IMG/VR virus record: IMGVR_UViG_2551306526_000008 | Span: 1 to 40,415 of that record | Length of the DNA: 40,415 nt | Direction: 5' to 3' (one strand) | Source: a virus | Taxonomy: Duplodnaviria; Heunggongvirae; Uroviricota; Caudoviricetes | Shown: one piece after another, positions 34,383 through 36,473 of the stretch | Layout of the letters: every line of letters starts with the position of its first letter | Position numbering within the stretch: position 1 is the stretch's first letter | The notes under the pieces: generated by a model | Told to the model about the DNA's origin: nothing | Database searches by the model: none | What the model saw: the letters and a program-made list of their open reading frames with translations, nothing else | Position numbers and translations under genes: made by a program

Positions 34383-35090
34383 ATGGATTTGAATAAATTC
34401 GATGAGCCATTCAGCCCTGAAGATATCGAATGGCGAATACAGCAAAGCGGTAAAACACGCGATGGCAAGGTGTGGGCTATGGTGCTGGCTTATGTCACGA
34501 ACCGGGCAATCATGAAACGCCTGGACGATGTTTGCGGCAAAGCAGGATGGCGCAATGAATACCGCGATATTCCCAACAACGGCGGAGTTGAATGCGGCAT
34601 ATCAATCAAGATTGATTCCGAATGGGTAACCAAATGGGATGCTGCTGAAAACACGCAGGTAGAAGCCGTCAAAGGTGGTCGTTCCGGTGCAATGAAGCGT
34701 GCTGCCGTTCAGTGGGGAATCGGTCGGTATCTGTATAACCTTGAGGAAGGTTTCGCACAAACATCTCTCGATAAAAAGCAGGGGTGGCACAGGGCAAAAC
34801 TGAAGGATGGAACAGGATTTTACTGGCTCCCTCCATCGCTGCCGGGATGGGCAATCCCAGCATCAGATAACAAACCATCACCAGAAAATACCAACCAGAA
34901 ATCTCCATCGGTTGACTGCGAACAAATCCTGAAAGACTTCAGCGATTATGCGTCAACAGAAACTGACAAGAAAAAACTCATCGAGCGTTATCAGCGTGAC
35001 TGGCAATTAATGGCTGGCAATGAGGATGCGCAGGCTAAATGCGTTCAGGTAATGAACATCAGAGTTAACGAACTAAAACAGGCGGCATAA
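34383..35090 (+). CDS. Single-strand annealing recombinase: Rad52/Sak-like N-terminal domain with Erf-like C-terminal tail
   Basis: 235 aa; C-terminal ILKDFSDYASTETDKKKLIERYQRDWQLMAGNEDAQAKCVQVMNIRVNELKQAA closely matches recalled P22 Erf C-terminus; N-terminal region is not Erf-like. Confidence 0.7.
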   Translation: MDLNKFDEPFSPEDIEWRIQQSGKTRDGKVWAMVLAYVTNRAIMKRLDDVCGKAGWRNEYRDIPNNGGVECGISIKIDSEWVTKWDAAENTQVEAVKGGRSGAMKRAAVQWGIGRYLYNLEEGFAQTSLDKKQGWHRAKLKDGTGFYWLPPSLPGWAIPASDNKPSPENTNQKSPSVDCEQILKDFSDYASTETDKKKLIERYQRDWQLMAGNEDAQAKCVQVMNIRVNELKQAA

Positions 35091-35606
35091 ATGGCAAGCA
35101 GAGGCGTAAATAAGGTGATCATTATTGGTCGCCTTGGGCATGATCCAGAAATCAGATATTCACCATCAGGAACGGCATTTGCAAACCTTACAGTTGCTAC
35201 GTCAGAACAATGGCGTGATAAGCAAACTGGAGAGCAAAAGGAGCAGACGGAGTGGCACCGTGTGGTAATGAGCGGGAAACTGGCAGAAATTGCCAGCGAA
35301 TATCTGCGAAAAGGCTCTGAGGTTTATCTTGAAGGCAAATTGCGGACAAGAAAATGGCAGGATCAAAGCGGACAGGATCGGTTCACTACCGAAGTCATCG
35401 TGGGCGTTGGTGGAACCATGCAAATGCTTGGTGGCAAGCAAGGAGGCAATGAACAGTCTTCACCTCAGCGAAATAATGGTCAGCAACAAAGACAGCAACC
35501 TCAGCAGCAGGGAAATCACAGCGAACCACCTATGGATTTTGACGACGATATCCCCTTTGCACCAGTAACTCTCCCCTTCCCTCGTCACGCTATTCACGCA
35601 ATTTAA
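35091..35606 (+). CDS. ssb: Single-stranded DNA-binding protein with 15-aa extension beyond DDDIPF
   Basis: 171 aa; OB-fold N-terminus [23 protein letters not shown], Gly/Gln-rich linker, DFDDDIPF followed by [15 protein letters not shown] before the stop. Confidence 0.85.
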
Positions 35607-35614
35607 GGACTTAC

Positions 35615-36163
35615 ATGAATCACTTGATGGTTGACCTTGAAACAATGGGCAACGGGCCATACGCGCCAGTTATTTCTATTGGGTCGGTATTCTTTGACCC
35701 GAATACCGGAGAAACAGGAGAAGAGTTCTCGGTAAATATCTCGCTTGAATCATCAATGCGATATCGAGCGCGTCCTGACGCTTCAACGATTTTATGGTGG
35801 CTGGAACAGAGTGAAGAAGCCAGAAAATCGCTAACCAGCAACACTCAGGAGCTTTCAACGGCTCTTTCATGGTTATCTGAATTCATCATAAAGAACGCCA
35901 ACCACAAACTCGTTCAGGTTTGGGGGAATGGAGCATCATTTGACTGCGTTATTCTCCGCAACAGTTATTCGCTGACAGGGCAGCCAGTTCCGTGGCAGTG
36001 GTGGAATGACCGCGACGTAAGAACAATCGTCGAACTTGGGAAGGTAATAGGATTCGATCCTAAGCGAGATATGCCATTCAAAGGAACTCGCCACAACGCG
36101 CTTGATGATGCCATCCACCAAGCCAAATACGTTTCAGCGATCTGGAAAAAGTTAGCTAAATAA
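35615..36163 (+). CDS. DEDDh-family 3'-5' exonuclease
   Basis: 182 aa; Exo I motif MVDLETMG and Exo III motif HNALDDAIH. Confidence 0.7.
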   Translation: MNHLMVDLETMGNGPYAPVISIGSVFFDPNTGETGEEFSVNISLESSMRYRARPDASTILWWLEQSEEARKSLTSNTQELSTALSWLSEFIIKNANHKLVQVWGNGASFDCVILRNSYSLTGQPVPWQWWNDRDVRTIVELGKVIGFDPKRDMPFKGTRHNALDDAIHQAKYVSAIWKKLAK

Positions 36164-36179
36164 TCAACAGGAGAAAACC

Positions 36180-36473
36180 ATGCCAGCGCCTCTGTATGGT
36201 GCGGATGACCCGCGCCGCTGTTCCGGCAATTCCGTATCGGAGGTGCTGGATAAATTCAGAAAAAACTACGATCGGATAATGTCGCTACCGCAGGAAACGA
36301 AAGAGGAAAAGGAATTTCGTCACTGTATATGGCTCGCAGAGAAAGAAGAACGCGAGCGAATTTACCAGACATCAATCCGACCATTCCGCAAAGCCACATA
36401 TACCCACTTCCCTGAAATTGACCCGCGCCTGCGTAATTACCGCTCACGCTATGGCGCTATCAGTAATGACTGA
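36180..36473 (+). CDS. Hypothetical protein
   Basis: 97-aa ORF in co-directional early operon. Confidence 0.5.
   Translation: MPAPLYGADDPRRCSGNSVSEVLDKFRKNYDRIMSLPQETKEEKEFRHCIWLAEKEERERIYQTSIRPFRKATYTHFPEIDPRLRNYRSRYGAISND

What the first reader, a model, noticed from the sequence alone, without database searches (positions are those of the whole stretch)
35091..35606. Phage SSB whose acidic DDDIPF tip is internal rather than C-terminal
The protein is clearly SSB-like up to DFDDDIPF, but the reading frame continues for 15 more residues ([15 protein letters not shown]) before the stop. In bacterial SSB the DDDIPF tip is the very C-terminus and is the docking site for partner proteins, and C-terminal additions are known to impair this. 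This could be a frameshift artefact, a pseudogenising mutation, or a phage variant with altered or dominant-negative partner interactions.
Basis: partly seen in the sequence, partly recalled or inferred. Interest (0 to 1): 0.5.

Follow-up and report, generated by a model that had tools for sequence, protein, structure and literature searches.

The report
Phage SSB with a capped tip
The 15 extra residues after the DDDIPF tip of this phage single-stranded-DNA-binding protein are not an error but a common, conserved, selected "cap", and the tip/cap junction is also where a mobile nuclease gene inserts in sister phages.

Summary
In detail: window 35091-35606 (+) encodes a 171-aa SSB whose DDDIPF tip (residues 151-156) is followed by [15 protein letters not shown].

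It is not a frameshift, sequencing error or pseudogene. The same in-frame tail is present in:
- 39 of 80 closest relatives fetched with the OB domain alone;
- prophages of 409 of 5426 complete E. coli genomes;
- 115 of the 120 best protein clusters (E. coli, Klebsiella, Citrobacter, Salmonella, Enterobacter).

The tail is as conserved as the OB fold, has pN/pS of about 0.06, and belongs to a wider set of 'DDDIPF+AP...' tails found on at least five ssDNA-binding families.

In Sf6-type phages a 0.45-kb cassette replaces exactly the Ala157 codon. It supplies a stop after Phe, and its HNH-like ORF reads into the old tail. That nuclease family lacks the tail elsewhere. In 6 of 8 blind checks it sits directly behind a gene ending in ...DIPF. 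The window therefore carries the cassette-free, capped-tip allele.

The function of the cap is inferred, not shown. The likeliest effect is loss of canonical docking of host partners, which needs the free carboxylate of the terminal Phe, with the tail acting as a lineage-specific motif. I found no description in the open-access literature searched.

The parts
35091..35606 (+). ssb gene, 171 codons plus TAA; cassette-free, capped-tip allele
   Evidence: 98-100% identical copies in phages ECP1 and HZ41 and in E. coli prophages
35106..35405 (+). OB-fold ssDNA-binding/tetramerisation domain (residues 6-105)
   Evidence: PF00436, E 2e-38; majority fraction 0.90 in alignment A2 over residues 1-115
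35436..35525 (+). Gln/Gly/Pro-rich variable linker (residues 116-145)
   Evidence: majority fraction 0.60, no invariant column
35526..35558 (+). host-like acidic tip [11 protein letters not shown] (residues 146-156), here internal; DDDIPF is 35541-35558
   Evidence: majority fraction 0.95; identical to the end of canonical SSB profiles
35559..35603 (+). 15-residue cap/tail [15 protein letters not shown] (residues 157-171)
   Evidence: majority fraction 0.90, invariant P158 L161 F163 R165 H166; pN/pS 0.058; motif family A-P-[IV]-[GT]-L-[PMQ]-[FY]-P-[RS]-H-A-I-[HY]-A-[ILV]
35559..35561 (+). Ala157 codon (GCA): the exact segment replaced by the 0.45-kb stop+RBS+HNH-like ORF cassette in Sf6, CurroJimenez, IME10 and N7
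34383..35090 (+). Rad52/Rad22-type single-strand annealing protein; its stop abuts the ssb ATG
   Evidence: PF04098, E 5e-26; always upstream of APVTL-tail SSBs
35615..36163 (+). DnaQ-like 3'-5' exonuclease (Rv2179c-like), 8 nt after the ssb stop
   Evidence: PF16473, E 5e-72
36180..36473 (+). Abc2 anti-RecBCD protein; end of the recombination module
   Evidence: PF11043, E 6e-64

Best explanation
SHOWN. The window, a P22-like E. coli phage or prophage, carries an intact recombination-module ssb gene. Its host-like acidic tip ([11 protein letters not shown]) is followed by a conserved, translated 15-residue cap ([15 protein letters not shown]). This is the commonest allele of its clade. It is one member of a wider set of 'DDDIPF + AP...' capped tips found on several unrelated phage ssDNA-binding scaffolds. 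The tip/cap junction is also the insertion point of a mobile HNH-like endonuclease cassette. In Sf6-type phages the cassette replaces the Ala157 codon with a stop codon, a ribosome-binding site and a 159-aa ORF. That ORF runs in frame into the old tail and uses its stop codon. The window is the cassette-free allele.

INFERRED. (1) Host SSB partners anchor the alpha-carboxylate of the terminal Phe, so the cap should weaken or abolish canonical docking of host partners such as ExoI, RecQ, PriA and chi, while leaving ssDNA binding and the acidic tip's in-cis roles intact. Phage-SSB-coated ssDNA would then be 'private' to the phage recombination functions and less visible to host nucleases or tip-sensing defences. 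(2) The conserved longer tails act as short linear motifs for a host-lineage-specific partner that is not yet identified. (3) The endonuclease family homes to the tip-coding DNA (GAYGAYGAYATHCCNTTY). On that view the window's canonical tip sequence is a cleavable target, and the altered tips next to the cassette (DDSDIPF and similar) are co-converted, possibly immune, variants.
For: Prevalence:
- 39 of 80 OB-anchored relatives are capped; 32 of 80 have cassette plus free tip; 8 of 80 have a free tip with no tail.
- 409 of 5426 complete E. coli genomes carry the junction.
- About 92 of 126 tail-bearing IMG/VR loci are SSB-tail.
- 115 of the 120 best protein clusters across five genera are capped.

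Selection:
- Eight distinct nucleotide sequences encode the identical tail.
- pS 0.366, pN 0.021 in the VTL clade, on codons the scan left unconstrained.
- Tail conservation 0.90 against linker 0.60.

Modularity:
- The same tip+AP-tail sits on phrog_44, 743, 9002, 378 and 112 (gp2.5-like) scaffolds.
- Tail class follows locus GC rather than scaffold.
- The 9-residue class occurs in SSBs related to those of Pseudomonas phages.

The tail is foreign to the nuclease:
- Homologues elsewhere end soon after ...KPIY.
- PHROG 2340 matches residues 1-143 only.
- AF2 pLDDT is 97-98 for residues 1-145 and 59 in the tail.

Cassette and homing signature:
- Window versus CurroJimenez: flanks are 98.6-98.9% identical, while the last 45 columns of ssb are 71% identical, with 13 differences including a 3-nt insertion.
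- The 'SD' tip is found in 32 of 32 loci with the cassette and 0 of 47 without.
- The cassette ORF is intact in 31 of 32 loci.
- 6 of 8 blind-picked homologues, and all six with at least 40% identity, lie 0-52 nt behind a gene ending in ...DIPF, on four different scaffolds. Pseudomonas phage Aurca01 adds a further case.
- A decayed cassette occurs in phiKp_30.

Premise for the cap effect: PMC10164576 and PMC7293020.
Against: No experiment or complex model addresses the cap. A 15-residue peptide is not GFP, and some partners might tolerate it.

Sf6, CurroJimenez and similar phages are viable with a free tip in the same module, so the cap is not essential for growth.

The strict conservation of the internal DDDIPF could equally mean that the tip is exposed later by processing.

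No neighbouring gene co-varies with the tail, so no partner is identified.

The AF2 model of the SSB was too poor to say anything.

NFDDSDIPF joined directly to the tail exists as a natural allele. The altered tip next to the cassette may therefore be hitch-hiking rather than immunity.

The Genome Research 2025 survey treats the HNH genes as likely recombination-module members rather than selfish elements.

The ranking favours tail-bearers, and the scan fixed 'AP'.
Confidence: 0.6

Rival explanations
1. Sequencing or assembly error, frameshift, or a recent stop-loss that pseudogenises the SSB or leaves a neutral run-on.
For: A 15-codon run-on is about what chance gives after losing a stop. Canonical SSB models end at residue 156.
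Against: The identical in-frame tail occurs in hundreds of independent phage, prophage and metagenome records. Synonymous-only variation gives pN/pS 0.058. The tail is as conserved as the OB fold. Diverged tail versions keep a motif. No indel is seen in alignments.
Confidence: 0.01
2. The tail is a scar. It was originally the C-terminus of the HNH-like gene, and a deletion of that gene fused it to ssb.
For: In Sf6 and Huey the tail is the C-terminus of the endonuclease ORF. Deletion chimeras of the cassette do exist: P0024, P0027, P0037, P0066, P0073, P0076, and phiKp_30.
Against: Homologues of the nuclease outside this locus lack the tail. The PHROG profile ends at residue 143. The tail is disordered in a confident model. 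The capped allele contains tip codons plus GCA that are absent from cassette-bearing alleles, so it is not a simple deletion product. Diverse capped tails occur on SSBs and on other scaffolds with no such nuclease nearby.
Confidence: 0.04
3. The tail is conserved mainly as DNA, for instance as the right half of the endonuclease recognition site or as a recombination 'boundary sequence' between modules, and the peptide is incidental.
For: The 45-nt tail is nucleotide-identical in E. coli, Shigella and Salmonella phages whose ssb bodies are only about 75% identical. It lies between exchangeable modules: ssb types A and B upstream, exo or abc2 downstream.
Against: Outside that recent population the tail accumulates synonymous changes, up to 6 in 13 codons with no replacement, and even a different stop codon. 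The diverged classes keep an amino-acid motif rather than a nucleotide one. The ribosome-binding sites of the downstream genes lie after the stop codon.
Confidence: 0.1
4. Pro-SSB or degron. Either the tail is removed by a protease to unmask a canonical tip at the right time, or its hydrophobic C-terminus (...HAI, ...YAL, ...LAGA) targets the protein to an AAA+ protease such as ClpXP, limiting phage SSB levels.
For: The internal DDDIPF remains strictly conserved, as expected if it is eventually used as a terminus. Tails end in aliphatic residues. The resemblance to ssrA-type (LAA) and MuA-type (RRKKAI) ClpX signals is from memory only. Free-tip variants are viable.
Against: Very short caps (APCM, APEWR, a single N) do not look like degrons. 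No protease gene is associated.
Confidence: 0.13
5. The tail is a new docking motif that redirects the SSB to a specific host hub, such as the beta sliding clamp, rather than merely blocking the tip.
For: P-[IV]-[GT]-L-[PQM]-[FY] resembles hexapeptide clamp-binding motifs such as QLSLPL (from memory, not tested). The tail class follows the host-lineage proxy rather than the scaffold. The tail is disordered, as short linear motifs are.
Against: The 9-residue and shorter classes do not fit that motif. There is no structural or binding evidence. The motif occurs nowhere else in the window.
Confidence: 0.12

Closest known systems
E. coli-type SSB (PF00436 / TIGR00621; SSB-Ct hub model)
   Same: OB domain, variable Gln/Gly/Pro linker, and an acidic tip [11 protein letters not shown] identical to the end of the enterobacterial SSB profile.
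   Different: The tip is not the C-terminus. Fifteen conserved residues follow it, so the Phe alpha-carboxylate that partner pockets anchor (PMC10164576) does not exist. The gene is phage-borne and sits in a recombination module.
Lambdoid 'SSB-1' recombination-module proteins of Sf6 and ES18 (Genome Res 2025, PMC12315714)
   Same: Same protein family and gene position (SAP - ssb - nuclease - abc2); 97-98% nucleotide identity to Sf6 ssb up to the tip.
   Different: Sf6 and ES18 have free tips (NFDDSDIPF*, NFDDEIPF*) followed by an endonuclease gene, while the window has the capped tip and no endonuclease. The survey does not mention the tail and says these proteins have not been studied experimentally.
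Free-standing homing endonuclease genes of phages (HNH / His-Me finger type; general knowledge, e.g. T-even mobE and seg genes, SPO1 I-HmuI)
   Same: Presence/absence polymorphism between near-identical genomes, insertion next to a highly conserved coding sequence, a cluster of substitutions at the junction, decayed copies, and the same gene family always beside the same target gene.
   Different: The cassette is placed inside the 3' end of the ORF, brings its own stop codon for ssb, and reads in frame into the host gene's residual 14 codons. The nuclease has no Pfam or NCBIfam model, and its activity and target are untested.
HK620 SSB (HkaK, tip NDYPPF) with Sak4 (PMC5928155); T7 gp2.5 acidic tail ending in Phe (general knowledge)
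   Same: Precedent that phage recombination or replication proteins read the last residues of their cognate SSB. A gp2.5-like scaffold also appears among the capped proteins.
   Different: Those tips are terminal; here the tip is internal.

Membership tests
Bacterial-type SSB (PF00436 / TIGR00621) | N-terminal OB-fold SSB domain | tested here: met
   PF00436, E 2e-38, residues 6-105; TIGR00621 184.7 bits against a cut-off of 53.95
Bacterial-type SSB (PF00436 / TIGR00621) | Low-complexity, poorly conserved linker between OB domain and tip | tested here: met
   Residues 116-145 are Gln/Gly/Pro-rich; majority fraction 0.60, no invariant column
Bacterial-type SSB (PF00436 / TIGR00621) | Acidic tip motif D-F-D-D-D-I-P-F | tested here: met
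   Residues 149-156; conserved at 0.95
Bacterial-type SSB (PF00436 / TIGR00621) | Tip is the extreme C-terminus (free alpha-carboxylate on Phe), as required for SSB-Ct docking | tested here: not met
   Fifteen residues follow Phe156. All full-length SSB profiles end at residue 156. For the requirement itself see PMC10164576 and PMC7293020.
Bacterial-type SSB (PF00436 / TIGR00621) | Homotetramer that binds ssDNA | not testable with these tools
   The monomer AF2 model was poor (pLDDT 53); no multimer or binding assay is available
Homing-endonuclease target locus (cassette-free allele) | Presence/absence of the nuclease gene between otherwise near-identical genomes at one precise site | tested here: met
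   Window versus CurroJimenez: 98.6-98.9% identical flanks; a 444-nt insert plus recoded tip replaces the Ala157 codon
Homing-endonuclease target locus (cassette-free allele) | Inserted ORF is a site-specific DNA endonuclease (HNH / His-Me finger) | tested here: inconclusive
Homing-endonuclease target locus (cassette-free allele) | The nuclease gene family is consistently associated with the same target gene across diverged genomes | tested here: met
   6 of 8 blind picks, and 6 of 6 with at least 40% identity, lie 0-52 nt behind a ...DIPF-ending gene on four scaffolds; also Aurca01
Homing-endonuclease target locus (cassette-free allele) | Target sequence is altered in nuclease-bearing alleles (self-immunity and/or co-conversion) | tested here: met
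   The 'SD' tip is found in 32 of 32 loci with the cassette and 0 of 47 without. There are 13 differences in the last 45 columns. Non-canonical tips sit next to the nuclease in independent lineages. Whether this confers immunity is not tested.
Homing-endonuclease target locus (cassette-free allele) | Enzyme cleaves the cassette-free allele, and the cassette is inherited at more than 50% in crosses | not testable with these tools
   Requires biochemistry and phage crosses
ClpX-type C-terminal degron | Exposed non-polar C-terminal tripeptide recognised by ClpX, with protease-dependent turnover | not tested
   Only a remembered resemblance (...HAI, ...LAGA versus LAA and RRKKAI); no tool available
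Beta-clamp-binding motif (QL[SD]LF / QLxLxL) | Motif match plus binding in the clamp's hydrophobic cleft | not tested
   P[IV][GT]L[PQM][FY] loosely resembles QLSLPL (from memory); other tail classes do not fit

The most novel reading that the evidence does not exclude
Capping the host-like SSB tip is a widespread, modular phage strategy. By adding as little as one residue and up to 15 after the terminal Phe, phages keep the acidic tip's in-cis functions but uncouple their SSB-coated ssDNA from the host SSB interactome (ExoI, RecQ, PriA and others) and from defences that sense free phage SSB tips. The longer tails serve as host-lineage-specific docking motifs. Independently, a dedicated HNH family parasitises the tip-coding DNA and, by inserting, converts capped SSBs into free-tip SSBs.
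Probability: 0.3. Interest if true: 0.8.

Novelty: new variant of a known kind. Interest (0 to 1): 0.66.

Why it matters
The SSB C-terminal tip is the textbook docking site of the bacterial genome-maintenance hub, and its free terminal Phe is considered indispensable. A large, selected family of phage SSBs in which that tip is deliberately internal would therefore matter in several ways.

- It gives natural 'cap' variants with which to dissect which SSB functions need a free tip.
- It suggests how phages insulate their recombination intermediates from host nucleases, or from SSB-sensing defence systems. A 2026 preprint links a phage SSB-like tip and ExoI to DRT10 activation.
- It is relevant to recombineering tool design, where SSB-tip/annealase compatibility limits portability.
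- Many phage annotation pipelines call these proteins plain 'SSB', so the feature is flagged for them.

The companion result is a nuclease gene family that is almost always found right behind ...DIPF codons. That family is a candidate for a new, easily testable homing-endonuclease specificity. It also explains why sister phages differ at this spot.

Tried and rejected
At 46 aa it returned only fragments.
- Pfam and NCBIfam on Sf6 gp26 and the Huey ORF: no hit. Foldseek against PDB: nothing significant.
- AF2 of the window SSB with a shallow alignment: pLDDT 53, tail 31-38, uninformative. Complexes cannot be modelled with the tools.
- Search for a co-varying neighbour gene that might be the tail's partner: none. 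The APVTL class always follows the Rad52-type annealing protein, but other classes follow ATPase, DnaQ-like or RdgC-like genes.
- Second copy of the tail motif elsewhere in the window: none.
- Literature: no paper in the held library contains the tail sequence or describes capped tips. The 2004 Sf6 genome paper is not held.
- 'Single-base indel near codon 156': rejected, since alignments show clean in-frame continuity.
- 'The recoded tip was engineered by the cassette': weakened, because NFDDSDIPF plus tail exists as a natural allele with its own synonymous differences. Co-conversion from the donor lineage is the better reading.
- Aurca01: I tested whether its gp26-like ORF ends in the Pseudomonas-type tail. 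It does not.

Full report
**1. The observation**

Window 35091-35606 (+) is an ATG-initiated ORF of 171 codons ending in TAA.
- Residues 6-105 match the Pfam SSB domain (PF00436, E 2e-38).
- Residues 116-145 are a Gln/Gly/Pro-rich linker.
- Residues 146-156 read [11 protein letters not shown].
- [15 protein letters not shown] follows in frame (35559-35603).

The tip is therefore internal in a formal sense.

The gene sits in a recombination module. A Rad52/22-type annealing protein lies at 34383-35090, and its stop abuts the ssb ATG. A DnaQ-like 3'-5' exonuclease lies at 35615-36163, and Abc2 anti-RecBCD at 36180-36473. The window as a whole is a P22-like E. coli phage or prophage.

**2. Not an artefact or a pseudogene**

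The whole 516-nt gene, extension included, is found at 95-99% identity in phages ECP1, HZ41 and CP-1639. It is found at only 75-78% nucleotide identity, but with the same tail, in mEp235, mEpX2, epsilon34, g341c and HK75.

The tip/tail junction is present in prophages of 409 of 5426 complete E. coli genomes, where it is annotated as an intact ssb.

I fetched 80 relatives from IMG/VR using the OB domain alone, so the sample is not biased by the C-terminus:

| C-terminal form | Count |
|---|---|
| Internal tip plus tail | 39 |
| Free tip, 444-nt insert, then the tail DNA | 32 |
| Free tip, no tail (mostly the more distant relatives) | 8 |

In the 5.8-billion-protein collection, 115 of the 120 best 90%-identity clusters carry [AS]P[VI]TLPFPRH[AT][IV][HY][AV][IL]. 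These clusters come from E. coli, several Klebsiella species, Citrobacter, Salmonella and Enterobacter, at 75-98% identity. One cluster alone has 1030 members. That ranking favours tail-bearers, so it shows breadth rather than frequency.

No indel is involved. Where relatives have a free tip, a stop follows Phe directly and unrelated DNA follows.

**3. The tail is a selected peptide**

I scanned IMG/VR for a degenerate back-translation of DDDIPFAP. This leaves codons 3-15 of the tail unconstrained. It gave 21 distinct 39-nt tails.
- Within the VTLPFPRH clade, pS = 0.366 and pN = 0.021 (ratio 0.058).
- Single variants carry up to six synonymous changes and no replacement, and one uses a different stop codon.
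- Eight different nucleotide sequences encode the identical 15 residues.

In an alignment of 40 capped SSBs, majority-residue conservation is 0.90 for the OB domain, 0.60 for the linker, 0.95 for the tip and 0.90 for the tail. P158, L161, F163, R165 and H166 are invariant.

Within E. coli, Shigella and Salmonella phages the 45-nt tail is nucleotide-identical even where the ssb bodies are about 75% identical. This points to recent spread through a module boundary, or to an additional DNA-level constraint. The wider data show that the primary constraint is on the protein.

**4. A wider phenomenon**

The same scan uncovered several tail classes:
- a 15-residue class, A-P-[IV]-[GT]-L-[PMQ]-[FY]-P-[RS]-H-A-I-[HY]-A-[ILV], including APIGLPYPRHAIYVI, APIGLMYPRHLINVI and APIGLPFPSHSIYAL;
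- a 9-residue class, AP[LMH]H[HY]L[AN]G-x;
- short caps such as APEWR, APAWLI and APCM.

Elsewhere I saw a one-residue cap, DDDIPFN*.

These tip+cap modules sit on at least five ssDNA-binding families that BLAST does not link: phrog_44 (canonical SSB), phrog_743, phrog_9002, phrog_378 and phrog_112 (gp2.5-like).

Tail class follows locus GC content rather than scaffold. The 15-residue class occurs at 46-54% GC on two scaffolds, and the 9-residue class at about 60% GC on the same two scaffolds. Numbers for the second scaffold are small. SSBs of the 9-residue class are most similar to Pseudomonas phage SSBs.

No single adjacent gene co-varies with the tail. Because 'AP' was fixed by the scan, other cap starts are under-sampled, such as 'SP' in Klebsiella.

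**5. The tip/tail junction is an insertion site for a mobile nuclease gene**

In Sf6, CurroJimenez, IME10 and N7 the SSB ends ...PPMNFDDSDIPF*. Nine nucleotides later a 159-aa Cys/His-rich ORF starts, and it ends ...[22 protein letters not shown], which is the window's tail minus its first residue. The Sf6 record already noted '14 contiguous amino acids identical to E. coli SSB'.

Window and CurroJimenez are 98.6-98.9% identical in the annealing-protein gene, most of ssb and the exonuclease gene. The cassette replaces exactly the GCA (Ala157) codon. The last 45 alignment columns of ssb carry 13 differences, including a 3-nt insertion.

The tail is not native to the nuclease:
- Among 77 homologue clusters, only the copies next to ssb have it; the others end shortly after ...NKPIY.
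- PHROG 2340 ('endonuclease', E 3e-47) covers residues 1-143 only.
- A confident AF2 model (pLDDT 97-98 for residues 1-145) drops to about 59 in the tail.

Other variants were seen:
- Huey has a diverged member of the same family behind a type-B ssb ending NFDDEIPF*, again reading into the tail.
- ES18 and S135 have an unrelated HNH_3 gene after NFDDEIPF*, and no tail.
- phiKp_30 retains a decayed cassette.

**6. Family-wide test of the ssb association**

I picked eight diverged homologues of Sf6 gp26 without looking at their context. All six with at least 40% identity lie 0-52 nt downstream of a gene ending in an SSB-type tip:

| Locus | Tip | Upstream protein |
|---|---|---|
| L322 (Cronobacter) | DFDDSDIPF* | divergent OB SSB |
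| L325/L326 | DYDQDIPF* | PF00436 SSB |
| L324 (Hafnia) | DFDDDIPFN* | phrog_743-like |
| L323 (145-kb Pectobacterium phage) | DFDLDIPF* | 405-aa protein |
| L329 | DFSDDIPF* | phrog_9002-like |
| L330 | NFDDDQDIPF* | 153-aa protein, no Pfam hit |

The two most distant picks (37% identity) are elsewhere. Pseudomonas phage Aurca01 adds another case: FDSFDSDIPF*, with a gp26-like ORF 23 nt downstream and no tail.

Tips next to the nuclease are mostly non-canonical. In the OB-anchored sample the 'SD' tip is found in 32 of 32 cassette-bearing loci and in 0 of 47 cassette-free loci. The cassette ORF is intact in 31 of 32 loci.

A natural NFDDSDIPF+tail allele with its own synonymous differences exists. 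The altered tip in Sf6-type phages is therefore best read as a co-conversion tract from the lineage in which the cassette arose. Whether it also protects against self-cleavage is open.

All of this is the population-genetic signature of a homing endonuclease that targets the tip-coding DNA. Cleavage and super-Mendelian inheritance remain untested. A recent survey regards these HNH genes as probable recombination-module members.

**7. What the cap most likely does (inference)**

Partner pockets for the SSB tip have three parts: a hydrophobic pocket for the terminal Phe, a basic lip that anchors its alpha-carboxyl group, and a basic ridge for the Asp residues. The carboxylate contact is among the most important (PMC10164576). 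Appending GFP to the C-terminus leaves ssDNA binding intact but abolishes ExoI binding, and such fusions appear to need a wild-type ssb copy for viability (PMC7293020).

The one property shared by every cap class, from one to 15 residues, is removal of that carboxylate. My best reading is therefore as follows:
- Capped phage SSBs coat ssDNA but do not recruit host partners in the canonical way.
- The conserved internal tip keeps its in-cis role or a phage-specific role.
- The longer conserved tails act as lineage-specific short linear motifs.

Two pieces of context fit this reading. A phage annealase depends on the last six residues of its cognate SSB (PMC5928155). A phage SSB-like protein with a host-like FDDDIPF tip is needed to trigger the DRT10 defence, which ExoI antagonises (bioRxiv 10.64898/2026.04.29.721553).

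Against a strong requirement for the cap: free-tip, cassette-bearing phages are viable and common. Rivals I cannot exclude are proteolytic unmasking or a C-terminal degron, and a new docking motif such as a clamp-like one. Both rest on remembered resemblances only.

**8. Novelty and verdict**

The held literature contains neither the tail sequence nor a description of capped SSB tips. [quoted passage not shown] The library is open-access only, and the 2004 Sf6 paper, which may comment on gene 26, is not held.

I rate the finding as a real, ordinary-looking gene with an unusual, conserved feature. It is a new variant of a known kind (SSB), coupled to a probable new homing-endonuclease specificity. 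Confidence is high for the descriptive and evolutionary claims and moderate to low for the mechanism of the cap.

Noticed in passing
L319 2037-2504; L321 (Hafnia phage Pocitis76) 384-908; 'cluster 11' in several IMG/VR loci, e.g. L025: A different HNH_3-type endonuclease gene is wedged between the annealing-protein gene and ssb, overlapping the ssb start. The 5' end of ssb therefore looks like a second insertion hot spot.
   Followed up: partly
L003 (ES18) 2010-2531; L009 (S135) 2034-2531: An unrelated HNH_3 / zf-His_Me endonuclease (T7 gp7.7-like by annotation) follows ssb ending NFDDEIPF*. No tail DNA remains before abc2. This looks like an independent invasion of the same junction that removed the tail.
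   Followed up: partly
L007 (Klebsiella phage phiKp_30) 1951-2146: A decayed cassette. The first ~30 nt and last ~30 nt of the Sf6-type ORF flank an unrelated GC-rich hairpin-like stretch, and the tail is mutated (…RHAAYAI). The region is unannotated in the record.
   Followed up: partly
Proteins P0024, P0027, P0037, P0066, P0073, P0076: Chimeric ORFs in public data: SSB fused to the C-terminal half of the nuclease, and the nuclease N-terminus fused to the downstream 3'-5' exonuclease. These are consistent with deletions that erode the cassette.
   Followed up: no
L324 1055-1759 (Hafnia psychrotolerans prophage): A phrog_743-like ssDNA-binding protein ends DFDDDIPFN*, a single-residue cap on an otherwise canonical tip, with a gp26-family gene 42 nt downstream.
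   Followed up: no
L136 ('MAG: Actinomycetes bacterium', 3.9-kb contig) and L138 ('Chryseobacterium sp. 18061', 799-kb contig): Both records carry enterobacterial-phage-type ssb/HNH/tail sequence; L136 matches the E. coli phage sequence over the junction segment inspected. This is probably contamination, mis-binning or a mislabelled assembly.
   Followed up: no
H34: NZ_CP026085.1 1445149-1445429 ('E. coli DH5alpha', 4.83 Mb): A 100% identical match to the window's ssb 3' end and exonuclease start, in an assembly labelled DH5alpha that is larger than I expected for that strain (from memory). It may carry this prophage and could be the source or a close relative of the window.
   Followed up: no
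L131 (E. coli EC931) 2501-2559: Only the last 59 nt of ssb (tip plus tail) survive, abutting a truncated holin pseudogene and followed by abc2 and an IS5. This is a rearranged prophage remnant.
   Followed up: no
L130 (E. coli VE-T10) 2057-2558: The 0.5-kb stretch between a 157-aa free-tip ssb and abc2, which contains the tail at 2501-2545, has no annotated gene in RefSeq. The cassette ORF may be missed by the annotation pipeline or disrupted there.
   Followed up: no
window 35088-35093 and 35604-35617: Tight gene packing. The annealing-protein stop (TAA) directly abuts the ssb ATG. The ribosome-binding site of the exonuclease gene (AAGGA) overlaps the ssb stop codon, suggesting translational coupling along the module.
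   Followed up: no
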